This document shows, one piece after another, positions 37,223-51,220 of a stretch of 64,000 bases of DNA. Position 1 is the first letter of the stretch, and each line of letters begins with the position of its first letter. The DNA lies in NCBI GenBank assembly GCA_964563055.1, contig CAZLVP010000003.1, positions 48,646-112,645 on the forward strand. Reading direction: 5' to 3'. This stretch comes from an uncultured Thermoplasmatales archaeon. Lineage in GTDB: Archaea > Thermoplasmatota > Penumbrarchaeia > Penumbrarchaeales > Penumbrarchaeaceae. The position numbers and the translations under genes are program-made. Below the pieces are notes generated by a model that worked only from the letters and a program-made list of their open reading frames with translations, was not told where the DNA came from and made no database searches.

Positions 37223-37828
37223 ATGAAGCACGTTAAGGTGATGGGTTTCGACCTTGATGGGACATTAGTCAAGATCAAACTGGATTTCAGGACAATACGA
37301 AAGGAGCTCGGCATCCCAGAGAGGGACATCCTTTCATACATCTCCTCTCTACCAAAGCCACAGGGCGACAAGCTCCTCAGGGCCGTCGAGGATCGGGAGA
37401 TGGAAGCTGCAGAGAAGGCCGAGATAATGGAAGGCGCCCAGGAGCTATTGGAACATTGCAGGTCCAGGGACATCCGTGTCGTGGTCATCACCAGGAACTC
37501 GGAAAAGGCGAGCAAACGGACCCTTTCCAATTTGGACCTGGAGGTCGATATGGTCATATCCAGGGAGCACTCGGCGCCCAAACCCTCGCCCGAACCGCTC
37601 AACATGGTTCTGGGTCACTTCAAGATCGAACCTTATCAGATGGCCTTTGTAGGTGATTACCTATTTGACATGCAGGCCGGAAGGGCGGCCGGGGTCAAGA
37701 CCATCCTTCTTACGACACAGGAGAGCTGTGACCAGTGGGCCCATGCCGCTGATTTCGTCGTCACCGACCTATACGAGGTCCTGGACCTTCTCAAGGAAGG
37801 CCGGGAGGCCCAGTGCAATGTCCGTTGA
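37223..37828 (+). CDS. HAD-superfamily hydrolase.
   Basis: MKHVKVMGFDLDGTLVK and FVGDYLFDMQAGRAAG are present. Confidence 0.65.
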   Translation: MKHVKVMGFDLDGTLVKIKLDFRTIRKELGIPERDILSYISSLPKPQGDKLLRAVEDREMEAAEKAEIMEGAQELLEHCRSRDIRVVVITRNSEKASKRTLSNLDLEVDMVISREHSAPKPSPEPLNMVLGHFKIEPYQMAFVGDYLFDMQAGRAAGVKTILLTTQESCDQWAHAADFVVTDLYEVLDLLKEGREAQCNVR

Positions 37829-38582
37829 TGCGAATGGAGGCAAGGGTGGGCCAAGGCTCCATCTGATGCTCGTCGATTCCGAACTAGAGATGGTCCCCAA
37901 GGAACTATGGTCCCATCCCTCCGTGGCATCCAACGCCAGAAAGAGGGGTAAGAGACCCTCTCAGGTACTGCTCGATTCCAATCTCCATCACAATGCTCTG
38001 GGAAGCAGGGAAGAGGCTATGAGGAGGGGTAGGCCGGACATCGTCCATCAGTTCCTGCTCCTGGGGCTAGATTCACTGCTCAACCTTGAGGGCGGGCTGA
38101 GGATCTACGTCCATACCAGGAACGATGAGCTCATAGGTGTGGCCCCGAACACCAGGCTCCCCAAGAACCTTAACCGGTACATGGGCCTGTTCGAGGAGCT
38201 TTTCGCATCAGGTGCCGTTCCAAGCAAGGAGGACCCCCTCCTATCGCTCACACCTGGCATGGACCTTGAGAAAAGCATTTCATCTGTCAAGGACAGTGCA
38301 CGGTCGGCCGGAAGGGACCTCACGATCGTCCTTCTCGATCAGGAAGGGGAGAAAAAAGGGGCCTACGAACTTTTCAGAGACCTACCTGGTCTGGTCGAAG
38401 GAAGAAGTGATGTCCTTTGTCTGGTCGGCGGGTTCTCTCATGGCGACTTCAGATCGGATGTGAAAGCTATAAGCGACCGATCGATCAGCCTTTCCGACTC
38501 GATTCTCAAGGTCTGGGGCGTCGAGATGGAGCTCATTGTGGCCTTCAGGTACTCGATGGGAGAGGGGAAGGGCTCAAAGTAG
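37818..38582 (+). CDS. nep1: Ribosome biogenesis methyltransferase Nep1/EMG1 (SPOUT).
   Basis: RPDIVHQFLLLGLDSLLN is the Nep1 signature. The start overlaps the upstream HAD gene. Confidence 0.75.
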   Translation: MSVDANGGKGGPRLHLMLVDSELEMVPKELWSHPSVASNARKRGKRPSQVLLDSNLHHNALGSREEAMRRGRPDIVHQFLLLGLDSLLNLEGGLRIYVHTRNDELIGVAPNTRLPKNLNRYMGLFEELFASGAVPSKEDPLLSLTPGMDLEKSISSVKDSARSAGRDLTIVLLDQEGEKKGAYELFRDLPGLVEGRSDVLCLVGGFSHGDFRSDVKAISDRSISLSDSILKVWGVEMELIVAFRYSMGEGKGSK

Positions 38583-39500
38583 GCCGTACTTCTGGAGGAG
38601 CATCAGGTCCTCGGTCGAGAGCTTCTCTCCCCTCATGAACTTCTCATAGATCTTCTCGGCCTCGAGCTTTGCCGAGACCGGTGAGGGTTGGGCCGTTGTT
38701 TGGGTCGAAGGCGTGGCCGTCTTCTGGACCTTTTTCTCCTGTGCCCTCTTTCTCTGTCTGAGGGCTATTATGAGCCTATCGAGGTCGTGGACCAGATGTA
38801 TGAGCTCTATGTGCTTCCAGTGCTCCTCGTCGGCCTTCACCTTTGAGGCGACGAAGCTCTCCTGACCGGCATCGGCCTCCTTACGGACCTTGTCCGATTC
38901 GCTGAACCGCTCTATCATCTGGTCATGTTCCTTCTGGGCCAGGTCCGCATATTCGTTGACCATATGGTGGGAATCGTCCATCTTCTTCTTTGCATCGCGG
39001 ACCTTCTGGATGATCTCCCTCATCTCCTCGTTGGCCTCGAACTCCTTCTCCTTCTTGTCTATCTGGGACTTGATCTTGGATATCCTCTCTACAAGGTCCC
39101 TTTCCTTGTCGGCCTCAAGGACCGATGTCTGTTGCTTGAACTCAAGGTCCTTGACCTCCCTTTTCAGCCGGGCAAGGTTCCTCTCCTCCTCCGCAGAGCT
39201 GGTCCTGGATTTCTTGAGCTTGTCGAGCTTTGCCTTCTCCTCGGCGAATACCTTGGTAAGGAGGTCCCTGTTGGCCTTCTCCTGCTGGACCTTTGAATTG
39301 AACTCGTCACGCCTCTCTCTGAACCGGGATGCCTCCTGCAGGAGCTTCTTTACTTGGGCATTGTGCCTGTCCCTGGTCTCAGCGAAGCGCTTCGTCTCCT
39401 GGTTCAGCCTGTCACGCTTCTTCCTATGCGCGTCGGCATCGGCATTGAGCTTGTTCCTGCGCTCCTCCAGTTCCTCGAGGTATTCGGTCATCCCTATCAC
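38574..39500 (-). CDS. Lys/Glu/Arg-rich coiled-coil protein, function unknown.
   Basis: Heptad-rich K/E/R sequence runs over about 250 aa. Confidence 0.45.
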   Translation of the reverse strand: MIGMTEYLEELEERRNKLNADADAHRKKRDRLNQETKRFAETRDRHNAQVKKLLQEASRFRERRDEFNSKVQQEKANRDLLTKVFAEEKAKLDKLKKSRTSSAEEERNLARLKREVKDLEFKQQTSVLEADKERDLVERISKIKSQIDKKEKEFEANEEMREIIQKVRDAKKKMDDSHHMVNEYADLAQKEHDQMIERFSESDKVRKEADAGQESFVASKVKADEEHWKHIELIHLVHDLDRLIIALRQRKRAQEKKVQKTATPSTQTTAQPSPVSAKLEAEKIYEKFMRGEKLSTEDLMLLQKYGLL

Positions 39501-39722
39501 ACAATGTCCATCTTTTTGCCTGCGGGGGAGAACGGGAGCATGCTGGCCCCTGTCCCGGGCTTGGGGGCTATTATAGGGCTACTTTTTAAGGATTTCCATA
39601 TTAGGCATGTTTGTCAATGGTCTGACCATCAGAGGGTCCTTAGGGGCTCCAGTCGGAAATCTACTGTAACATTAATTATATCCCCTGACCGTTGTACCGT
39701 CAGTCAAGGTCGGTGTCAGAGC

Positions 39723-40361
39723 ATGGGCCCGGTGGAGATAGCATTGGTGGCGGCCATAGTCGCATTGGCCCTTGTCCTCTTCTTCTGGACGTTACTGAGC
39801 TCCGTGGTGATCATCCAGCAGTACGAGTCCGGGGTCTATATGAGGCTCGGAAGATATAAAAGGACGTTGGGACCAGGCCTACATCTGGTCGCTCCATTCG
39901 TGTCAAGGATATACAGAGCGGACACACGGGCCCAGGTACTGGACATAGGGAGGACCGAGCTCATGACCCGGGACATGTCACCTGTAGTTGTCGAGGCATT
40001 CATCCAGTACCGTATGGTAAGGCCGGACAACAGCCTTCTCAAGGTGGAGAAATACAGGTCCACCCTATCCCAGATCTCCCACGTCACCATGAGGAAACTT
40101 GTACTGGAACATGATCTGGATGACATCCTACGGAACATTCCCACTATCGGCAAGCAGTTGAAGGAAAGGCTATCCTCAGAGGGCGAAACCCTTGGGGTGG
40201 AGATAGTCCGGGCTGAGATAAAGGAGCTTGAGCCCGTAGGACCTATCAAGGCCGCGATAGAGGATAGGATAGCTGCAGAGAAAGAGAGGCAGGCCATGAT
40301 ACTCAGGGCCGACGGCAGGAAGAGGGCTATGATGATGGATGCCGAGGGGAAAAGGTCCTGA
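39723..40361 (+). CDS. SPFH/band-7 (stomatin/prohibitin-like) membrane protein.
   Basis: An N-terminal TM (IALVAAIVALALVLFFWTLL) is followed by an SPFH core (VIIQQYESGVYMRLGRY...). I set the start at the ATG at 39723. Confidence 0.75.
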   Translation: MGPVEIALVAAIVALALVLFFWTLLSSVVIIQQYESGVYMRLGRYKRTLGPGLHLVAPFVSRIYRADTRAQVLDIGRTELMTRDMSPVVVEAFIQYRMVRPDNSLLKVEKYRSTLSQISHVTMRKLVLEHDLDDILRNIPTIGKQLKERLSSEGETLGVEIVRAEIKELEPVGPIKAAIEDRIAAEKERQAMILRADGRKRAMMMDAEGKRS

Positions 40362-40440
40362 ACCCACCTTTAAGGGTCCATCTGACGCTTTGATGATGAT
40401 AATTTTATAATAGAAGTAAAGGGTTCATTTTCGACGACAC

Positions 40441-41460
40441 ATGCTCAAGAAGATCTCAATGACAGTCGATGAAAGGGTACTCCTCCACCTTATGGATTTC
40501 ATACCCTTCGAGGAGGATTTCGAATCGCCCGAGGGTACGACCCAGGCAGGGATAGCCAAAGGGGTGGCCATAGAGAGGAAGCACATCCCCAGAGCGGTCA
40601 AGAAGCTCATGTCCGACAACCTTGTCGAGACCAAGGTCTCACATGTCAGGGGTGCCAAGCAGAGGAAGAAGGTCTATTTCCTGACCTTTGAAGGCAAGGC
40701 ACTGGCCAGGAGGATATGGGAATCCTTGGCAAAGAAGCCTGTCATAATCAAGGACGAGTCCGGTAACGAGACCGAGACGACATTCTCAGAGCTCTGCTTC
40801 ACCTATCAGGTCGGAAGGACCCCGCTCCAGCTCCTTCAGGACTTCCAGGACGGGAATGTGTATTCCCCGACAGCCTCCGCAAAGCAGACGGTCGAGAAGG
40901 AGACCAAGAGACCGTCAAAGGAGGGTAAGGTCGATGGTGCGAAGGAGGTCTACCGGAAGGCCCTCGTGAAGGCCTGGGAGGATTCCATACTGACCAAGGA
41001 GGAATCCCAGCTGCTCAAAGAGCTAAGGGACTCCCTTGGGATAACCGAGCTCGATCATAGGAACCTGCAGGAGGAGATACTCGGGGGCGGTAAGGCGCAG
41101 GGGAGGGAGCTCAACAGGTCCGAGATCTACAGGAAGGTCCTCGAGGTCGCGGTCAGGGACGGCCGGATAACCCAGGACGAGCAGGACATCCTCGATGAAC
41201 TGGAGAGATCGCTAGGTCTGAACAAGGACCAGGCCATGAAGCTGAGGATGGAGATGCAGCTCCTCAAAGGTGAGGGTATAATGACCCCGGAGAAGAGGGA
41301 CCGCAACTACAAGGACATATACGGGTCCGTCATAAGGGAGTCCATGAAGGATGGGAAGATAAGCAGGGACGAGCAGAACCTGATACTTCTTTTAAAGAGG
41401 CTCCTTGAGATAGAGGACAAGGAGCACCTGGACATCTACAACGATGTGAAGGGGGCCTGA
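40441..41460 (+). CDS. Winged-helix N-terminal domain protein with three tandem repeats of about 45 aa ('Y(R/K)K.L..A..DG.I..DE...L..L...LG').
   Basis: The repeats YRKALVKAWEDSILTKEESQLLKELRDSLGI, YRKVLEVAVRDGRITQDEQDILDELERSLGL and YKDIYGSVIRESMKDGKISRDEQNLILLLKRLLEI are present. The motif reappears in the protein at 45525-46805. Confidence 0.55.
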   Translation: MLKKISMTVDERVLLHLMDFIPFEEDFESPEGTTQAGIAKGVAIERKHIPRAVKKLMSDNLVETKVSHVRGAKQRKKVYFLTFEGKALARRIWESLAKKPVIIKDESGNETETTFSELCFTYQVGRTPLQLLQDFQDGNVYSPTASAKQTVEKETKRPSKEGKVDGAKEVYRKALVKAWEDSILTKEESQLLKELRDSLGITELDHRNLQEEILGGGKAQGRELNRSEIYRKVLEVAVRDGRITQDEQDILDELERSLGLNKDQAMKLRMEMQLLKGEGIMTPEKRDRNYKDIYGSVIRESMKDGKISRDEQNLILLLKRLLEIEDKEHLDIYNDVKGA

Positions 41461-42119: not shown

Positions 42120-42197
42120 GGGCACGTAGTATAGCCTGGATAATGCGTTAGCCTCCTAAGCTAAATGCCAAGGGTTCGAATCCCTTCGTGCCCGCCA
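42120..42197 (+). tRNA. tRNA-Arg (anticodon CCT), with CCA encoded.
   Basis: I folded it by hand. The acceptor GGGCACG/CGTGCCC, D stem GTAT/ATGC, anticodon stem TTAGC/GCTAA with loop CTCCTAA, T arm AAGGG-TTCGAAT-CCCTT, discriminator G and CCA are all in place. Confidence 0.8.
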
Positions 42198-42213
42198 TTT
42201 TTTTGTTAAAAAC

Positions 42214-42246
42214 TGGCGCACTCAGGGTTCGAACCCTTGATTGGCG
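42214..42246. other. tRNA-like fragment (T-arm plus acceptor 3' strand) with no 5' half.
   Basis: TGGCGCACTCAGGGTTCGAACCCTTGATTGGCG contains the palindromic T-arm core GGTTCGAACC. It reads as ...GAGTGCGCCA-3' on the minus strand. I found no complementary 5' acceptor strand within 200 nt. Confidence 0.3.
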
Positions 42247-42416
42247 TTACTAATCCTGATAAATGAACGTTCATGAGAAGGTAAGTATTTTATTACAGCT
42301 AATTTCAAAAGAAGAGAATGGGGTAATTTAGAGATTATTTGAAAGAAGTGTCAGGACGATTTCTGGGGTCGCTGACGGTTCAGTAGTAGGTGGATCAGGT
42401 TCATTGTTGTAAGGGT

Positions 42417-44078
42417 TCATCGCTGGGTCGTACCTGCCGATGGGACGCCGTTCTCGATATTGATAAAATCCCTCAAGAGCGAATTGCTCACCCTCTGCCG
42501 GTACTCCCTTCTGCTCATCTGATAGATTATGACGTCCGCCTTCCCGCCATCGACCGGCTGGTACTCACGAAGGATCCCCGCCTTCCTGAAGCCTGTAAGT
42601 TCCAGTACCCGCTTGGTCTGGTCCTTTGTCGCGGTAACGTATGTGATGAGGTTCTCCAGCTTCATCCTGTCGAAGGCTATGCCCAACAGGAGCTCGGCCG
42701 ATTCCTTGCCGTAACCCTTGCCCTGGCTATCCTTGTCCCCTATCAGGAAGGATATCTCCGCGCTCTTGTTCAAAGGATTGATGTTCTCCAGGGAGCAGAC
42801 CCCTATCTCCCTTCCATCGGAACGTTCGAGCATCAACAGATCGAAATCGTCATGGCCGGATATGAAATACTTGTCTATGAGATTGTCCTCGGAGTAGCTG
42901 TGGACATCGAACCCGTTCTCCCCCTTGTTCACCTCTAGCTCGTTGTACCATTTCGATATGAGGTCAAGGTTCTCGTACTTCACAGGTTTGAGGATGAGAT
43001 TATCCGTCATGTAGGCCTCGTCCGTGGCCCTGGAGGTCTTCATAGGGTCGATCCTGTAGCGCTTCAAGGCCTCCTGAACGATCCGTTCTATGATCTGCTT
43101 GTAGGGGTATCCCGCCGCGTTGGCGCTCCTTACGAACCCGCCATCCAGATAGATCCAGGGATTGGGGTTCACCTCAAGAACGTAGGGGACACCGTCCCTC
43201 AGGCGAATATCGACCCTTGCATAGTCCCTGCAACCAGTTGCCTTGTAGGCATCGAGCGCCGCCTTCTTCACCCTTCGTTCGATATCAGGTGGCAGGTCCG
43301 CAGGGCACACCCCTGTGGTCCGATTATAGACATCCGTACCCTCGCACCACTTCGCCTGGTAGCTAACTATGTTCGGCTGTCCCTTTTCGAAATCGAAGGT
43401 TATCTCCGAGATGGGCAGGACCTCTAGCTTGTTCCCGTTCCCGATTATGGAGACGTTCAGTTCCCTTCCGTCTATGAACTCCTCGACGAGGGCGGGCTGA
43501 TGGAAGTTCTTGAGGATCCTTTCGACCATCACCTCGAGCTCGGCCCTGTTGTTCACAAGAGAGTCCATGGATATCCCAAGGCTCCCGTCCTCCATCGCAG
43601 GTTTGACGAAAAGGGGATAGTTCAGTTCGGGGTCGGTCGATTGCTTCTTTCTCACGAACTTCTGGTACTTAGGTGTCGGGATATCGTTCGCCACGAGCAT
43701 GTGCTTTGTCCGTATCTTGTTCATGCACAGTCCGAGGGTGAAGGAATCGGACCCGGTATAGGGGATCTCCAACAGGTCAAGGAAACCGGGTATCCATGGT
43801 TCTTTCTTGGAATCCTCCTCCAGCCCCTCACAGAGGTTGAAGATGAGGTCGAAGCTCCTTCTTCGCAGCGTCTGGATGGCGTTACGGCTCACACGGATGG
43901 GTATGACCTCATTATCGTCCTTTAAGACCGAGAGGATGCTCTGAACGGGATCACCGATCTCGCTGTCGGGCATTATGTCTATGTCCTTCCCGTAATCGGT
44001 GCTCTCGACGATGTTGTAGAGGATGCCTATCTTCATTGCTATCGACCGGAAGGCCATAGGCACATTGCTGCCCTGCAC
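42417..44078 (-). CDS. Fusion protein with an N-terminal ATP-grasp ligase (D-Ala-D-Ala ligase-like) and a C-terminal GNAT (RimL-like) N-acetyltransferase.
   Basis: The N-terminal half has MKIGILYN, a central Ddl-like ATP-grasp and EVNPNPW near the end of the grasp fold. The C-terminal half has GNAT motifs ISFLIGDKDSQGKGYGKESAELLLGIAFD. Confidence 0.6.
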   Translation of the reverse strand: MQGSNVPMAFRSIAMKIGILYNIVESTDYGKDIDIMPDSEIGDPVQSILSVLKDDNEVIPIRVSRNAIQTLRRRSFDLIFNLCEGLEEDSKKEPWIPGFLDLLEIPYTGSDSFTLGLCMNKIRTKHMLVANDIPTPKYQKFVRKKQSTDPELNYPLFVKPAMEDGSLGISMDSLVNNRAELEVMVERILKNFHQPALVEEFIDGRELNVSIIGNGNKLEVLPISEITFDFEKGQPNIVSYQAKWCEGTDVYNRTTGVCPADLPPDIERRVKKAALDAYKATGCRDYARVDIRLRDGVPYVLEVNPNPWIYLDGGFVRSANAAGYPYKQIIERIVQEALKRYRIDPMKTSRATDEAYMTDNLILKPVKYENLDLISKWYNELEVNKGENGFDVHSYSEDNLIDKYFISGHDDFDLLMLERSDGREIGVCSLENINPLNKSAEISFLIGDKDSQGKGYGKESAELLLGIAFDRMKLENLITYVTATKDQTKRVLELTGFRKAGILREYQPVDGGKADVIIYQMSRREYRQRVSNSLLRDFINIENGVPSAGTTQR

Positions 44079-44230
44079 GCCCCTTGGCCGACCGTATGTC
44101 GAAGAGGATAAATTATTCTATCGGAATTTCGGTCCTTTTCAACAAGGATAACAAGCTACATCGATAGCATTCAAAAGGTCCCTTCACCGCTCTTCTGCCT
44201 TGCGACCGATCGTGTCTTCGAATTAGGTCT

Positions 44231-47185: not shown

Positions 47186-48286
47186 TCAGAGCAGTACCAG
47201 GTCGAATGCCAGCAGTGTGACGATTGCGAACATTGTCGATAGGAAAAGACCGTTGGAGATCCTTCCTGATGACATGATACCTCCGACCACACCGTCCCCA
47301 ATGGCCTGTATCGCCGCAGCGGCAAATAGAAGGAGCTTCATCACCCCGAAATCCACTATGGTCGGGTCAAAACCACCTGGGGCCTGAGCAGAAGAGGAGG
47401 AATCACCGGTCTGATAGCTCTTGGAGAGCTCCTCCATCCTCGGCATGAAGGTTGCGAACATGACCGCTATGACGACAAGGAAGACCATGAAAGATATGGC
47501 TATCACATAGGTGTACATTGACATCTCAGTGGCCCTGGTCCTCTTCATTATCTGTATCTCCCTGGTATCCTTGGCGGCAGCGTCTATGACGTTCGATACG
47601 TTCCCGCCTGCGCTTGCCGCCTCATTTATCAGGGTCACCGCTCTCTTCACGAGAGGTGTATGGACCCTCTCAGCGAACATTTCGAGCGCCTTTGAGGCGG
47701 ATACGCCCCACGATACCTGGATGGCCATCTTCTTGATCTCGGGGGTAAGATACCCGTACTCACCGCCGGCAGATGTCTTGATCGCTTCATGAAGCGTCTG
47801 GCCAGCCCTCATGGACTCCGATATGTCCCTAAGGAAGTCCGATAGTCTTTCCTCTATCTTGTCGACCTTCCTCCTCTTGCGGACCTCATAGAATGATATC
47901 GGGCCAACCCCGCTGATGAACGATAGGAGCAGGAAGGAGTGCCATTCTATCCTCACCTCGCTCTTCACCCAGAATCCCGTCGTATTGAAGGTCAGGTTTA
48001 TCGGATTGAACCCTTCCTTCATGGAGAGCCTCTGCTTGTCCGGACCCAAGCTGTCGTAGGTGTCCTTGTACTCGTCCTTAACATTTGAGACAGGTAGGAA
48101 AGGCATGTTCATCAGGCTCAGCATTAAGAAGAACAATGCTAGGACGATCGAAATGGTATAGACGATGTATTTCTTCCTCTCCTCCGGGTCCTTGGCCACT
48201 TTGATGGTCTTCACTGTCCGGCCGCCTTTCTTCTGGCCTTGGAGCTGCTTGCGCCCGACCTTGGGGCTATCCTTGGCTACCATCAA
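47186..48286 (-). CDS. Type II secretion / archaeal pilus platform protein (FlaJ/TadC-like).
   Basis: It is polytopic with the T2SS-F-like pattern and has a Lys-rich N-terminal tail. Confidence 0.6.
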   Translation of the reverse strand: MMVAKDSPKVGRKQLQGQKKGGRTVKTIKVAKDPEERKKYIVYTISIVLALFFLMLSLMNMPFLPVSNVKDEYKDTYDSLGPDKQRLSMKEGFNPINLTFNTTGFWVKSEVRIEWHSFLLLSFISGVGPISFYEVRKRRKVDKIEERLSDFLRDISESMRAGQTLHEAIKTSAGGEYGYLTPEIKKMAIQVSWGVSASKALEMFAERVHTPLVKRAVTLINEAASAGGNVSNVIDAAAKDTREIQIMKRTRATEMSMYTYVIAISFMVFLVVIAVMFATFMPRMEELSKSYQTGDSSSSAQAPGGFDPTIVDFGVMKLLLFAAAAIQAIGDGVVGGIMSSGRISNGLFLSTMFAIVTLLAFDLVLL

Positions 48287-49182
48287 TCCGCCCCCGTATC
48301 ACCGATAAGAACAGCAAATACGATCTGGGCCACAGGTATGAGCCCGAAGATGGTTGCCATGAGCAGTGTATCCCCGCCCTGCTGCCCCATCATGGCCATC
48401 GTCGACATCATGATTATCAGGAAGAGGGGAGCGGCGACGACGACTGTAACGAAGCTCTCTGCCATGACACCCAGGGTCTGCATGTCCCTCTCCTGTTTCA
48501 GGCGGTTCTCCTTCATGAACTGCTCGGATTTGGCCATGAAATAGACCTTGAGGGAGCCTCCGGAGTTCGAGGTCGTGATAATACCCTGAAGGAAATCCTG
48601 GAACCGCTCCGAGGGGCTTCTGGCGATGGCCTTTTGCAGGACCTTAATGATATCCCTGCCGAAGAAGTCTATGTCCCTTGCGATCTTCTCCGCCTCCGTT
48701 CTGACCTCGCCGTATATCTCCTGTTCGGCCAATCCGCGGAAGATGGCAGTTGGGGTAACATCGGCCGACGACATGGCGGCCATATAGTTAGTGGCATAGG
48801 ACAGGTTGTTCTCTATGCTTTTCTTCCTTTCCGAGACGGCGTTCCTGGGAAGGCCCATGAAGATCGCGTAGGTGAACATACCTACCAGAGGCGGGACCGC
48901 GATCCAGATTACGAGCTTTATCGGTAATGGGAGGCCAAGGCTCTCCAGAATGGTCAGGTTCAGAATGGTGGCGACAATGAGCCCCCCGATGATGGCCAAT
49001 ACGACCGAGACCAACATCCCGGTGTAATAGACCTCGCCCCTGAGGTTGTAATTGGCCCTCTCCATGATGCTCTCGATATCGGGATCGTTATCGGCGAGCT
49101 TTTTCCCAAGCTTTGTCAAAGGTCCTATCTTCATGCTAGCCTTGAAGTAGGGTGTCAGGGTCATCTCATCCACCTCCTGCAT
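48283..49182 (-). CDS. Type II secretion / archaeal pilus platform protein (FlaJ/TadB-like).
   Basis: It is polytopic and T2SS-F-like. It overlaps the upstream ATPase gene by 17 nt. Confidence 0.6.
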   Translation of the reverse strand: MQEVDEMTLTPYFKASMKIGPLTKLGKKLADNDPDIESIMERANYNLRGEVYYTGMLVSVVLAIIGGLIVATILNLTILESLGLPLPIKLVIWIAVPPLVGMFTYAIFMGLPRNAVSERKKSIENNLSYATNYMAAMSSADVTPTAIFRGLAEQEIYGEVRTEAEKIARDIDFFGRDIIKVLQKAIARSPSERFQDFLQGIITTSNSGGSLKVYFMAKSEQFMKENRLKQERDMQTLGVMAESFVTVVVAAPLFLIIMMSTMAMMGQQGGDTLLMATIFGLIPVAQIVFAVLIGDTGAD

Positions 49183-51220
49183 TCTGAGGGGCCTGTCCTA
49201 TGGGTGGTTGTTGGCTCGCGCTACTACCACTATATGGGGGAAGAGCTTCCTTCGATGCGCTAGGAAGCTTTTCGATAGGAGCGTTATCGAAGAGCCGCAG
49301 TCCCTTCTTGATATCAATCTCCCTGTTCTCCCTGATGAGCTTAATGAGCTTGTCAGAGTCCTCATAATATTCAACGATCATCTTGCTCACGTCGGTGAAC
49401 TTCCTCACTTCGTTCTTGAGCATCCACTCTATGACCTCGGCCCTCCTGTTGAGCTCATGGATGACCTCGTCCCTTGTCATATCCTCCATATCCATGATCT
49501 TCTCATAAAGGTTAGAGTGGCCACCGAATACGAAATGGTCCCCGTTCCCTTCCCACCTGTAGACCCTGTTGGTGATGATCTCAAGGCTCGTAGGCTCGAT
49601 ACCGACTATCTCGACGAGCTCGGTGATCCTCCTGACCCTCATACCCTTGACCCTTAGCTGGTTGTGGATGGCGACCAGGTTGAGGGCTTGTATCAGGACC
49701 CTGGGGATGGAGATGGGTGGGTTCTCGAGACGATAGACGATGGATTTTACGGAATCAGCATGCATGGTTGAATATGTGATGTGGCCTGTGGCCATGGCCT
49801 GGAACATGGTCATGGTCTCCTTGCCCCTGACCTCACCCACAAGGACGTATTCTGGGCGTTGCCTCAATGCAGCCCTAAGAAGCTGGTACATATCGATATC
49901 GGTCTCGCGTCCCCCTTCCGCCGAACCCCTGGTAAGGCCTGCTATCCAGTTCTGATGAGGCAGGTTGACCTCCCTAGTGTCCTCTATCGAGATTATCTTC
50001 GCTGAGGTGGGGATGAAGATCGATGTGGCGTTCATCGTTGCGGTCTTGCCCGATGCCGTACCGCCTGCGAATATCATAGAGTCCCCATACTGGACCGCAA
50101 GCCAAAGGTGGGCGGCCATCTGTGGTGATATCGTCCCAAACTTGACCAGGTCCGTGATGGTGAGCGGGTCCTCCTTGAACTTCCTGATGGTGAATGAGGA
50201 ACCTCTCGTTGTCACCTCCCTGCCGAAGGTCGCGTTCAACCTGTGGCCTTCTGGAAGTGTCGAGTCAAGGATAGGATGTGCAACGGATATCGTCTTACCT
50301 GCCCTCTGGGCGAGGGACACTACGAACCCCTCGAGCTCCTCGTCCGATTCGAACTTGATGGTGGTCCGGATGGACCCGAAGTTCCGGTGGTATACGAAGA
50401 CAGGGATACCCGTACCATCACAGGATATATCCTCGACCCCCTGGTCCTTCATCAGGCATTGGATCTTGCCATATCCTATATACTCCCTCCAGACATGATA
50501 TCTGATAGGTTCCATGAGCTCTGTCGTCACATCTCCGATCACAGACCTATAATCCCTGAGGATGATATCGAGCTCTTTCTTTAGGAACCTCTCTTTCTCA
50601 ACGAGGACCTCCATTGCCATCTTGTCGTAGTTCAGAGAACTGGAAAGGGTCTCCCTGATGAACTCCAGTATCTTCTTCTGTCTTGGACCGAGCCTTGGCT
50701 CGATAGGGTGGTAGATGTATTCGTTCGTTACGGGATTGAGATAGATCTCGACACTGACGTTCTTATCACCCAGTTCCAGGGTCTCCATGAGCTCGACCCC
50801 TTCTTCCAGGTCCTTCTTGGAATCGTCGCTTATCTTTGCGATCTTCTTGATGTGGACCTCCCTATCGGGCTTGGAAAGGATCGACCTCAGCGTGTCTCCG
50901 AACCTCTTGACAGGTGAGGACCTCTGGTGTTGGGCCCCTTTGTCATTATCCTCCGTAACTGCTGACTCGTCCTGTTCGACCTCGGTGACCTTACCGTTCA
51001 CGGAAGAAGGTACTATGATCTGTTCTGTTGTGGTCCCTGCCGGACCGGGGGGGACCTGTAGCGTTCTAGGTCTGTTATTAGGGCTTTCAGAAATCTTGTT
51101 AGGGAATTTACCCTTATCTGTTTCGTCCGATCGAACATCTTTCCCCGTGACGTTCTCGGTCGGGACTTTCTCGGATGGACCGCCATCCCCAGAAATTCTT
51201 TCCTTCTTCCCTTCCGCCAT
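49166..51220 (-). CDS. FlaI/TadA/VirB11-family secretion ATPase with an N-terminal extension of about 170 aa that looks disordered.
   Basis: Walker A FAGGTASGKTATMNA is present. YVLVGEVRGKE and the His-box region are present. The N-terminal 170 aa are rich in K/E/P/S. Confidence 0.8.
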   Translation of the reverse strand: MAEGKKERISGDGGPSEKVPTENVTGKDVRSDETDKGKFPNKISESPNNRPRTLQVPPGPAGTTTEQIIVPSSVNGKVTEVEQDESAVTEDNDKGAQHQRSSPVKRFGDTLRSILSKPDREVHIKKIAKISDDSKKDLEEGVELMETLELGDKNVSVEIYLNPVTNEYIYHPIEPRLGPRQKKILEFIRETLSSSLNYDKMAMEVLVEKERFLKKELDIILRDYRSVIGDVTTELMEPIRYHVWREYIGYGKIQCLMKDQGVEDISCDGTGIPVFVYHRNFGSIRTTIKFESDEELEGFVVSLAQRAGKTISVAHPILDSTLPEGHRLNATFGREVTTRGSSFTIRKFKEDPLTITDLVKFGTISPQMAAHLWLAVQYGDSMIFAGGTASGKTATMNATSIFIPTSAKIISIEDTREVNLPHQNWIAGLTRGSAEGGRETDIDMYQLLRAALRQRPEYVLVGEVRGKETMTMFQAMATGHITYSTMHADSVKSIVYRLENPPISIPRVLIQALNLVAIHNQLRVKGMRVRRITELVEIVGIEPTSLEIITNRVYRWEGNGDHFVFGGHSNLYEKIMDMEDMTRDEVIHELNRRAEVIEWMLKNEVRKFTDVSKMIVEYYEDSDKLIKLIRENREIDIKKGLRLFDNAPIEKLPSASKEALPPYSGSSASQQPPIGQAPQNAGGG

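What the first reader, a model, noticed from the sequence alone, without database searches (positions are those of the whole stretch)
42417..44078. ATP-grasp ligase fused to a GNAT acetyltransferase
A Ddl-like ATP-grasp (carboxylate-amine ligase) and a RimL-like N-acetyltransferase sit in one 553-aa polypeptide, next to the tRNA locus. The fusion predicts a two-step 'ligate then N-acylate' chemistry, for example synthesis of an N-acetylated dipeptide or an aminoacyl-amine. I cannot place the substrate from sequence.
Basis: partly seen in the sequence, partly recalled or inferred. Interest (0 to 1): 0.5.

Follow-up and report, generated by a model that had tools for sequence, protein, structure and literature searches.

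The report
ATP-grasp ligase–acetyltransferase fusion, β-lysine family
This archaeal gene really does join an ATP-dependent amide-bond ligase to an acetyltransferase, and in other microbes its relatives nearly always sit beside a lysine-to-β-lysine enzyme and a second ligase, which points to an undescribed pathway for an acetylated β-lysine peptide, although this copy stands alone.

Summary
One uninterrupted ORF (42417-44078, minus strand) encodes a Ddl-fold ATP-grasp domain followed by an Acetyltransf_3-type GNAT domain. The conserved core starts at ATG 44036 (539 aa). The fusion is not an assembly artefact: about 85 protein clusters and 38 fetched loci share this architecture, in Thermoplasmatota, Lokiarchaeota/Promethearchaeota, Methanocellales and Wallbacteria.

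It is not a D-Ala-D-Ala ligase. The ATP/Mg catalytic core is intact, but the D-Ala-binding residues are replaced and every NCBIfam Ddl cut-off is missed.

The new finding is the context. In 24 of 28 informative fused loci, a paralogous ATP-grasp ligase (Ddl2) lies immediately upstream. In at least 17 of these a lysine 2,3-aminomutase (KamA) is also present, often fused to Ddl2. Bacteria carry the same module with a separate, unrelated GNAT.

The family therefore most likely forms an amide bond on a β-lysine-derived substrate and N-acetylates a free amine.

The window's copy and its closest relatives are orphans: there is no KamA or Ddl2 in the 64 kb. I found no publication on this module. The product is unknown.

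The parts
42417..44078 (-). Longest ORF (553 aa from GTG 44078) that encodes the fusion protein.
   Evidence: ORF list and sequence. It is 100% identical to database cluster P0001.
42417..44036 (-). Conserved core CDS (539 aa from ATG 44036, MKIGILYN...).
   Evidence: All more distant homologues (54% identity or less) start at this motif (alignment A1). One 539-aa member is annotated in the 90% cluster.
43059..44036 (-). Ddl-fold ATP-grasp ligase domain (core residues 1-326). The Pfam Dala_Dala_lig_C match covers 43074-43691.
   Evidence: Pfam result. PDB sequence search: Ddl 3r23, E 2.6e-31. Foldseek TM 0.85 to B. anthracis Ddl. Residues equivalent to K97, K144, E180, K215, R255, D257, E270 and N272 are kept.
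42999..43058 (-). Inter-domain linker (core residues about 327-346), poorly conserved.
   Evidence: Variable length and sequence in A1. pLDDT falls to 57 for residues 331-340.
42453..42998 (-). GNAT N-acetyltransferase domain (core residues about 347-528). The Pfam Acetyltransf_3 match covers 42585-42998.
   Evidence: Pfam result. NCBIfam gives PseH, SpeG, ArsN1 and RimL as best but sub-threshold hits. PDB sequence search gives AAC(6'), diamine and spermidine acetyltransferases at E 1e-9 to 1e-8. The Q-x-x-G-x-G motif (QGKGYG) is present and its glycines are invariant.
44108..44117 (-). TATA-like element (AATAATTTAT) upstream of the gene, a possible archaeal promoter.
   Evidence: Sequence. 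The element and the about 50 nt that follow it are conserved in the 92%-identical L093. Promoter function is inferred, not tested.

Best explanation
The gene encodes a bifunctional enzyme. The N-terminal Ddl-fold ATP-grasp domain activates a carboxylate as an acyl phosphate and joins it to an amine to form an amide bond. The C-terminal GNAT domain uses acetyl-CoA to acetylate a free amine. The protein belongs to a family ('Ddl1::GNAT') that is normally the last gene of a compact cassette. In that cassette, lysine 2,3-aminomutase (KamA) makes β-lysine, a paralogous ATP-grasp (Ddl2, often fused to KamA) makes one amide bond, Ddl1 makes a second, and the GNAT caps a remaining amine. The inferred product is a small N-acetylated β-lysine-containing peptide or isopeptide that stays inside the cell, since no exporter is conserved. 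The following are shown: the fusion, the intact catalytic motifs in both halves, the orthology to cassette-linked proteins, and the lysine-type determinants in the linked aminomutases. The following are inferred: the substrates, the order of the steps, the identity of the product, and whether this orphan copy still works on β-lysine supplied by genes elsewhere in the genome.
For: Domains: with a confident two-domain model (pLDDT 87, pTM 0.83).

Catalytic core: ATP-grasp residues equivalent to E. coli DdlB K97, K144, E180, K215, R255, D257, E270 and N272 are all present. GNAT motif A is present.

Context of fused homologues: KamA + Ddl2, or a KamA::Ddl2 fusion, lies immediately upstream in L001, L006, L088-L091 and in most metagenome loci. 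Of 25 fused loci with at least 3.5 kb of upstream flank, 22 have KamA and 23 have Ddl2. After dereplication and inclusion of shorter contigs, 24 of 28 have Ddl2.

Bacterial version: the bacterial relatives are arranged Ddl2-Ddl1-GNAT(160 aa)-KamA. Of 77 unfused loci, 45 have all three partners. The bacterial GNAT is RimI-like and shares only the generic motif with the archaeal one. An acetyltransferase was therefore recruited twice independently, which argues that acetylation is integral to the pathway.

Aminomutase specificity: the aminomutase is 50-70% identical to C. subterminale KamA (2A5H, E 5e-115). All 80 linked copies keep the equivalents of Asp293, Asp330 and Lys337. The best NCBIfam model is lysine 2,3-aminomutase AblA.

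Position of the window protein: it nests inside the fused, cassette-linked clade in a neighbour-joining tree.

GNAT relatives: the closest solved structures acetylate amines of cationic small molecules such as aminoglycosides, diamines and spermidine, which fits a β-lysine-type acceptor.
Against: The window itself has no KamA and no second Ddl-like gene anywhere in its 64 kb. No KamA::Ddl2 protein among the 120 best database hits lies on a contig of the window's contig length, 166,521 bp.

The window's own subclade is orphan in every case and sits in different neighbourhoods (L092/P0003, L008/P0004; L093 has too little flank to be decisive). This subclade also carries private substitutions near the active site, such as NPNPW where most members have NPNPG, and GG at the positions of DdlB S281/L282. 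It may therefore have shifted substrate.

No member of the family has been assayed. The product, the order of reactions and the acetylated nitrogen are unknown. The tree is a simple NJ tree without support values.
Confidence: 0.55

Rival explanations
1. It is a stand-alone synthetase for an N-acetylated dipeptide or aminoacyl-amine made from ordinary α-amino acids or polyamines. It would work like Ngg, which makes the osmolyte precursor N-acetylglutaminylglutamine, and would be independent of β-lysine. The orphan subclade would have lost the aminomutase link and changed substrate.
For: The gene is orphan in the window, in L092 and in L008. The subclade has private substitutions near the substrate pocket. 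There is a precedent for one polypeptide that both acetylates and ligates (Ngg; PMC8070244). The GNAT half resembles diamine and spermidine acetyltransferases.
Against: The protein nests within cassette-linked orthologues at 44-57% identity. The Ngg family model does not appear among the listed NCBIfam hits. To my knowledge the domain order is the reverse of Ngg's, and there is no asnO-like partner next to the gene.
Confidence: 0.22
2. It is a protein-modifying enzyme. The ATP-grasp would add an amino acid or peptide tag to a protein carboxylate (RimK-like logic), and the GNAT would acetylate a protein N-terminus or the added residue (RimI/RimJ/RimL-like logic). The target might be in the translation apparatus.
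For: Both GNAT types in the module are closest to ribosomal-protein N-acetyltransferase models: RimL for the archaeal type and RimI for the bacterial type. In L092 the gene abuts the S10, EF-1α, EF-2, S7, S12 operon. In Ignavibacteriota the bacterial cassette sits among housekeeping genes such as recG, gpsA and plsY, with no transporter. β-Lysine is used to modify EF-P in some bacteria (established knowledge; PMC2821294 appears in the listing).
Against: The ATP-grasp has the Ddl fold, whose known members join small molecules, not the RimK type. No candidate target protein is conserved in the neighbourhoods. All RimI/RimL scores are far below the family cut-offs. The ribosomal neighbourhood occurs in only one locus.
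Confidence: 0.1
3. It is a genuine D-alanine-D-alanine ligase, as some source annotations say, with a fused accessory acetyltransferase, and it serves cell-wall-type peptide synthesis.
For: JGI names cluster members 'D-alanine-D-alanine ligase'. The best fold and sequence matches are Ddl enzymes.
Against: All NCBIfam Ddl models fall well below their cut-offs (best 168.7 bits against 243). The Pfam N-terminal Ddl domain does not match. The D-Ala-site residues S150, Y216, S281 and L282 are G, W, G and G here. The hosts are archaea without murein, no mur genes are nearby, and the conserved partner is lysine 2,3-aminomutase.
Confidence: 0.03

Closest known systems
[quoted passage not shown]
   Same: Both share the three-domain ATP-grasp fold (Foldseek TM about 0.85) and 24-32% sequence identity. 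The ATP/Mg and acyl-phosphate-stabilising residues are conserved, so the acyl-phosphate ligation mechanism is presumably the same.
   Different: The substrate-pocket residues differ: S150 is G/A, Y216 is W, H63 is E, and S281/L282 are G/G. There is also an extra acidic residue (ED(A/G)S where Ddl has EGSS). Scores are below all curated Ddl cut-offs. This protein is fused to a GNAT, occurs in wall-less or murein-less archaea, and is linked to lysine 2,3-aminomutase rather than to mur genes.
AblA/AblB pathway for the osmolyte Nε-acetyl-β-lysine (methanogens, some bacteria)
   Same: Both combine a lysine 2,3-aminomutase with a GNAT acetyltransferase that acts downstream of β-lysine (pathway described in PMC3543383). 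The linked aminomutases here score best against the AblA model.
   Different: This module adds two ATP-grasp ligases. Its GNATs are RimL/SpeG-like (archaea) or RimI-like (bacteria), and no AblB-type model was hit. The predicted product is therefore a peptide-bonded β-lysine derivative, not free acetyl-β-lysine.
Ngg, N-acetylglutaminylglutamine synthetase of the NAGGN osmolyte pathway
   Same: In both, one polypeptide performs an N-acetylation and an ATP-dependent peptide-bond formation (PMC8070244).
   Different: To my knowledge Ngg has the GNAT at the N-terminus and a different ATP-grasp subfamily. No Ngg-family model appears among the listed hits. Ngg's partner is an asparagine-synthetase-like amidotransferase rather than an aminomutase. 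Ngg uses glutamine.
PylB/PylC of pyrrolysine biosynthesis
   Same: The logic is the same (from established knowledge): a radical-SAM enzyme rearranges lysine into a non-proteinogenic amino acid, and a Ddl-like ATP-grasp ligase then joins that product to an amine.
   Different: PylB is a methylornithine synthase, not a PLP-dependent 2,3-aminomutase. PylC was not detected in the PDB sequence search at E <= 1e-3. The pyrrolysine pathway has no GNAT and no second ligase.
Streptothricin N-acetyltransferases (STAT/NAT/SatA)
   Same: These are GNATs that acetylate the β-amino group of a β-lysine moiety (established knowledge). They show that a GNAT can carry out the predicted type of acetylation. The bacterial cassette GNAT has a faint STAT hit (E 3e-4).
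   Different: They are resistance enzymes that act on an antibiotic. They are not fused or linked to ligases, and their similarity to these GNATs is marginal.

Membership tests
D-alanine-D-alanine ligase (EC 6.3.2.4) | Ddl-type ATP-grasp fold | tested here: met
   Pfam Dala_Dala_lig_C scores 116 bits. Foldseek gives TM 0.82-0.87, normalised to target, against Ddl structures.
D-alanine-D-alanine ligase (EC 6.3.2.4) | ATP/Mg2+ and acyl-phosphate catalytic residues (DdlB K97, K144, E180, K215, R255, D257, E270, N272) | tested here: met
   All are conserved in the window protein when aligned with E. coli DdlB, whose sequence was verified against 2DLN.
D-alanine-D-alanine ligase (EC 6.3.2.4) | D-Ala-binding residues (E15, S150, Y216, S281, L282) | tested here: not met
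   The window has D, G, W, G and G at these positions. The whole family has W at 216 and A/G at 150. The N-terminal part of the alignment (E15) is uncertain.
D-alanine-D-alanine ligase (EC 6.3.2.4) | Score above the curated NCBIfam Ddl cut-offs | tested here: not met
   The best result is 168.7 bits against a cut-off of 243 (NF002378). All 25 listed models are below their cut-offs.
D-alanine-D-alanine ligase (EC 6.3.2.4) | Murein or pseudomurein biosynthetic context | tested here: not met
   No mur genes lie near the gene in the window or in homologous loci. The Ddl_archaea (pseudomurein) model scores 47.9 bits against a cut-off of 500.
GNAT superfamily, Acetyltransf_3 (RimJ/RimL/SpeG-like) branch | Domain match above the Pfam gathering threshold | tested here: met
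   Acetyltransf_3 scores 53.9 bits against 25.4, and Acetyltransf_4 scores 42.8 against 24.3.
GNAT superfamily, Acetyltransf_3 (RimJ/RimL/SpeG-like) branch | Acetyl-CoA pyrophosphate-binding motif A (Q/R-x-x-G-x-G/A) | tested here: met
   QGKGYG is present, and its glycines are invariant or nearly invariant across 29 and 20 homologues.
GNAT superfamily, Acetyltransf_3 (RimJ/RimL/SpeG-like) branch | Acetyl transfer from acetyl-CoA to a defined acceptor | not testable with these tools
   This needs an enzyme assay. No specific equivalog model is reached (PseH, SpeG, ArsN1 and RimL are all far below their cut-offs).
KamA-linked double ATP-grasp + GNAT module (operational family defined in this report) | Orthology of the ATP-grasp half to the Ddl1-type ligase of the cassette, with a fused GNAT | tested here: met
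   The protein is 44-57% identical to cassette-linked fused proteins and nests inside that clade in the NJ tree.
KamA-linked double ATP-grasp + GNAT module (operational family defined in this report) | Adjacent lysine 2,3-aminomutase and second (Ddl2-type) ATP-grasp | tested here: not met
   Neither is present anywhere in the 64-kb window. The rest of the genome could not be searched.
Ngg (N-acetylglutaminylglutamine synthetase) | GNAT and ATP-grasp in one polypeptide | tested here: met
   Both domains are present. To my knowledge the domain order is the reverse of Ngg's.
Ngg (N-acetylglutaminylglutamine synthetase) | Sequence membership in the Ngg family and an asnO-type partner gene | tested here: inconclusive
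   No Ngg-type model appears among the listed NCBIfam hits for the whole protein or the GNAT half, and the neighbours lack an asparagine-synthetase-like gene. I made no direct comparison with an Ngg sequence.
AblA/AblB Nε-acetyl-β-lysine pathway | AblB-type β-lysine acetyltransferase | tested here: not met
   The GNAT half hits PseH, SpeG, ArsN1 and RimL models only, with no AblB model at E <= 1e-3.

The most novel reading that the evidence does not exclude
The four catalytic domains (lysine 2,3-aminomutase, two paralogous Ddl-fold ligases and a GNAT) form a previously undescribed and very widespread pathway. It occurs in anaerobic archaea (Thermoplasmatota, Methanocellales, Asgard, Bathyarchaeia, DPANN) and bacteria (Ignavibacteriota, Bacteroidota, Chlorobi relatives, Desulfuromonadales, Aminicenantes). 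It would make a so far unknown N-acetylated β-lysine peptide or isopeptide, which could be a new intracellular metabolite such as a compatible solute, a polyamine-like polycation or a cofactor part. The window's orphan fusion would be a derived member, either fed from elsewhere in the genome or retargeted to a new substrate.
Probability: 0.45. Interest if true: 0.7.

Novelty: new variant of a known kind. Interest (0 to 1): 0.58.

Why it matters
If the inference holds, a compact and easily cloned set of genes encodes an unknown β-lysine-containing metabolite. In archaea the set is two genes that carry four catalytic domains. In bacteria it is four genes. It is present across many uncultured anaerobic lineages, including Asgard and genome-reduced DPANN archaea. 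Databases currently mislabel these genes as 'D-alanine-D-alanine ligase' or generic 'GNAT family N-acetyltransferase'.

The finding would extend β-lysine biochemistry beyond the three known uses: Nε-acetyl-β-lysine osmolytes, EF-P modification and antibiotic side chains. It would give Ddl-fold enzymes a defined role in archaea that lack murein. It is directly testable, because cultured organisms appear among the hits (Promethearchaeum syntrophicum; Stygiobacter electus and Melioribacter MAGs).

For this particular window the result is more modest: a well-supported bifunctional enzyme of unknown substrate, uncoupled from its usual partners.

Tried and rejected
- **Assembly artefact or chance fusion:** rejected. 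The same architecture is found in about 85 clusters and 38 loci.
- **True Ddl:** rejected on residues, cut-offs and context.
- **Pseudomurein ATP-grasp:** rejected (47.9 bits against a cut-off of 500; PMC11915815 concerns a different family).
- **Link to the adjacent tRNA-Arg:** no support. Homologues have unrelated neighbours.
- **Conserved synteny with the upstream 186-aa and 205-aa genes:** none found in L092, L008 or L088-L091. Those two genes have no Pfam hits.
- **Glutamate or arginine 2,3-aminomutase as the partner:** rejected in favour of lysine. The Asp293/Asp330 equivalents are kept in 80 of 80 copies, and AblA is the best model.
- **Same GNAT in bacteria and archaea:** rejected. Only motif-level similarity was found (E 0.008).
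- **Literature:** six searches on combinations of aminomutase, β-lysine, ATP-grasp, GNAT and Ddl found no paper on this module, and one further search was used only to document the Ngg precedent (one search returned nothing). The 2009 amidoligase survey by Iyer et al., the most likely place for a prior prediction, is not held.
- **Plasmid collection:** no full-length fused homologue.
- **Partner on the same contig:** I looked for a KamA::Ddl2 hit with the window's contig length and found none. The exact-sequence contig look-up for P0001 failed.
- **AFDB fold library:** unavailable. The PDB fold search returned only Ddl structures for the N-terminal half and no solved fusion.
Full report
**Observation.** The ORF 42417-44078 on the minus strand is real and uninterrupted. 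Pfam places a D-Ala-D-Ala-ligase-type ATP-grasp C-terminal domain at residues 130-335 (E 1.8e-33) and an Acetyltransf_3 GNAT domain at residues 361-498 (E 4.2e-14). Both are well above the gathering thresholds. In a PDB sequence search the N-terminal 325 residues match Ddl enzymes (3r23, E 2.6e-31). The C-terminal 170 residues match aminoglycoside 6'-, diamine and spermidine N-acetyltransferases (E 1e-9 to 1e-5). An AlphaFold model built on 29 homologues is confident (pLDDT 87, pTM 0.83) and dips only at the linker. Foldseek finds Ddl structures for the first half (TM about 0.85 to target) and no solved protein with the whole architecture. All more distant homologues (54% identity or less) start at MKIG(I/V)LYN, which corresponds to ATG 44036. 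The 14 extra codons from GTG 44078 may or may not be translated.

**The fusion is not an artefact.** A search of 5.8 billion protein clusters returned about 85 full-length fused relatives among the best 120 hits, at 36-85% identity. Named sources include Thermoplasmatota, Promethearchaeum syntrophicum, Lokiarchaeum ossiferum, other Lokiarchaeota/Promethearchaeota, Methanocellales and Candidatus Wallbacteria. Thirty-eight fetched loci carry the fused gene.

**It is not a D-Ala-D-Ala ligase.** I aligned the family with E. coli DdlB, after checking that sequence against 2DLN. The nucleotide, Mg2+ and acyl-phosphate residues are all present: K97, K144, E180, K215, R255, D257, E270 and N272. The residues that define the two D-Ala sites are not: S150 is G (A in most members), Y216 is W, H63 is E, and S281/L282 are G/G. 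The loop EGSS becomes ED(A/G)S, which adds an acidic residue. Every NCBIfam Ddl/Van model is far below its cut-off (best 168.7 bits against 243), and the pseudomurein ATP-grasp model scores 48 against 500. The assignment of these residues to D-Ala binding rests on my knowledge of the DdlB literature. The domain is thus an apparently competent carboxylate-amine ligase with a different, probably more cationic, substrate.

**The GNAT half looks active.** Motif A (QGKGYG) and the other glycines, the W-x-N motif at the start of the domain and the N...GF motif are invariant or nearly so. No specific NCBIfam equivalog is reached. The nearest models are PseH, SpeG, ArsN1 and RimL, all well below threshold.

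**Genomic context is the main result.** In the window the gene has no informative neighbours. Upstream lie a 186-aa and a 205-aa protein without Pfam hits and a TPR protein. Downstream lies a convergent tRNA-Arg(CCT). Homologues tell a different story.
- In Methanocellales contigs the order is radical-SAM/LAM_C aminomutase, then a 343-aa Ddl-like ATP-grasp, then the fusion.
- In six other archaeal contigs a roughly 700-aa aminomutase::ATP-grasp fusion sits directly upstream.
- A metagenome scan seeded with the GNAT half alone gave 46 loci. Nearly every fused locus with enough flank repeats this arrangement.
- Of 25 fused loci with at least 3.5 kb upstream, 22 have the aminomutase and 23 have the second ligase.
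- After removing near-duplicates and adding short contigs that still show the upstream gene, 24 of 28 informative loci have the second ligase.

The second ligase ('Ddl2') is a paralogue, about 36% identical to the ligase half of the fusion ('Ddl1'), and it keeps the Ddl-like EGSS loop.

**The bacterial version has the same four parts.** A scan of species-representative genomes found the Ddl1-type ligase unfused in Ignavibacteriota, Bacteroidota, Chlorobi relatives, Desulfuromonadales, Aminicenantes, Planctomycetota, Omnitrophota and others, and also in Bathyarchaeia and Aenigmatarchaeota. Clustering all neighbouring ORFs showed a fixed order: Ddl2, Ddl1, a 160-aa protein, then the aminomutase. 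The 160-aa protein is a GNAT with a RimI-like best hit. Of 77 unfused loci, 45 have all three partners. The bacterial and archaeal GNATs share only the generic motif (BLASTP E 0.008 over 74 residues). Two different acetyltransferases were therefore recruited to the same module, which is good evidence that acetylation is an integral step. No transporter or other enzyme is consistently linked. In Ignavibacteriota the cluster sits among recG, gpsA, plsY and ispD.

**The aminomutase is lysine-specific.** The linked enzyme aligns with C. subterminale lysine 2,3-aminomutase (2A5H) at E 5e-115. All 80 linked copies that cover the region keep the equivalents of Asp293 and Asp330 and of Lys337. According to my knowledge of the LAM and glutamate-2,3-aminomutase literature, the two aspartates bind the lysine ε-ammonium group and the lysine is the PLP lysine. 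The best NCBIfam model is lysine 2,3-aminomutase AblA (451 bits against a cut-off of 525). The KamA subfamily cut-off is passed, and the glutamate, arginine and EpmB models score lower. The module should therefore start from β-lysine.

**Proposed mechanism.** L-lysine is converted to β-lysine by KamA. Two ATP-grasp ligases form two amide bonds, and a GNAT acetylates a remaining amine. β-Lysine has one carboxylate and two amines, so three decorating activities could cap all three groups. Alternatively, short β-lysine oligomers could be built. The fusion partners (KamA with Ddl2, Ddl1 with GNAT) suggest the order KamA, Ddl2, Ddl1, GNAT, but this is inference only. The general logic that linked ATP-grasp ligases act successively and that an associated GNAT caps the product has been put forward for other systems (PMC4431377). 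One polypeptide that both acetylates and ligates is known in Ngg (PMC8070244).

**Caveat for this window.** No aminomutase or Ddl2 gene occurs in the 64 kb. None of the 120 best KamA::Ddl2 database proteins lies on a contig of the window's contig length. The window protein's nearest relatives form a subclade that is orphan in every case and sits in different neighbourhoods: P0002 and L093 at 85-92% identity, P0003/L092 and P0004/L008 at about 53%. In an NJ tree this subclade nests within cassette-linked fused proteins, so the orphan state is derived. It carries private changes near the active site. Either the partners are encoded elsewhere in these genomes, or the subclade has moved to another substrate. 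I put about 0.55 on the β-lysine-pathway reading for this copy and about 0.9 on 'active ligase plus acetyltransferase'.

**Novelty.** Six full-text searches on combinations of aminomutase, β-lysine, ATP-grasp, GNAT and Ddl returned nothing that describes this module. The 2009 survey of amidoligases, the most likely place for an earlier prediction, could not be read, so prior in-silico mention cannot be excluded. Source annotations are generic or wrong ('GNAT family N-acetyltransferase', 'D-alanine-D-alanine ligase', 'KamA family radical SAM protein'). I rate the finding as a new variant of known kinds (ATP-grasp peptide ligases, the AblA/AblB β-lysine pathway, Ngg-like bifunctional enzymes), of moderate to good interest.

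Noticed in passing
window 42164-42243 (tRNA-Arg at 42120-42197, +): The 3' half of tRNA-Arg(CCT) is followed, after a T/A-rich spacer, by an inverted imperfect copy of a tRNA 3' end on the minus strand (...CAAGGGTTCGAACCCTGAGTGCGCCA, about 42213-42243). Together they form an imperfect hairpin of about 80 nt, which cmscan reported as a spurious mir-605 hit. It could be a pseudo-tRNA, an integration-site remnant or a bidirectional terminator.
   Followed up: partly
window 44079-44130: The upstream region, with a TATA-like TAATTTAT and the about 50 nt that follow it, is almost identical in the 92%-identical metagenome homologue L093, whereas sequence further upstream has diverged. This suggests a conserved promoter or 5' leader. 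The start-codon choice (GTG 44078 or ATG 44036) remains open.
   Followed up: partly
proteins P0130-P0215; loci L001, L088-L091: Lysine 2,3-aminomutase fused to a Ddl-like ATP-grasp (about 700 aa) forms a large family of its own. It occurs in Thermoplasmatota, Methanocellales, Woesearchaeota, Nanoarchaeota and one Spirochaetales MAG. Its retention in genome-reduced DPANN archaea is notable.
   Followed up: partly
L097 3320-4303 and L099 7864-8847; L095 6701-7171 and L094 3269-3721: Some cassettes carry a third ATP-grasp paralogue between Ddl2 and Ddl1::GNAT. Others have a second, stand-alone GNAT about 41% identical to the fused GNAT roughly 2 kb downstream.
   Followed up: no
L026, L033, L035, L041, L045, L048, L053, L054, L062, L065-L067 (Ignavibacteriota/Bacteroidota): A separate bacterial clade of Ddl1-type ligases lacks all partners. 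Contig CAVTNP010000001.1 holds both a full cassette (L046) and such an orphan paralogue (L054).
   Followed up: no
plasmid hits H4-H21: Rhizobial symbiosis plasmids (for example pNGR234a) encode an unannotated ATP-grasp that is 32-37% identical to the ligase half. A Thioflavicoccus plasmid has one next to ornithine cyclodeaminase.
   Followed up: no
L002 943-2543 (Promethearchaeum syntrophicum): In the cultured Asgard archaeon the Ddl2 + Ddl1::GNAT pair has no adjacent aminomutase. It lies about 2.3 kb from pyruvoyl-dependent arginine decarboxylase and deoxyhypusine synthase genes, which belong to polyamine and hypusine metabolism.
   Followed up: no
window 42390-42938 (+) and 43500-43925 (+): Long ORFs on the strand opposite the gene (182 and 141 aa) are most likely shadow ORFs of the strongly supported minus-strand CDS.
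   Followed up: no
window 37653-41460 and 47186-51220: The surrounding genes are ordinary archaeal housekeeping or envelope genes: a Nep1/EMG1 rRNA methyltransferase, DUF7121, an SPFH/band-7 protein, a PRC-barrel protein, and two T2SSF-type (pilus/archaellum platform) genes. This is consistent with a Thermoplasmatota chromosome rather than a mobile element. The GC content of the gene (0.539) matches that of the window (0.546).
   Followed up: partly
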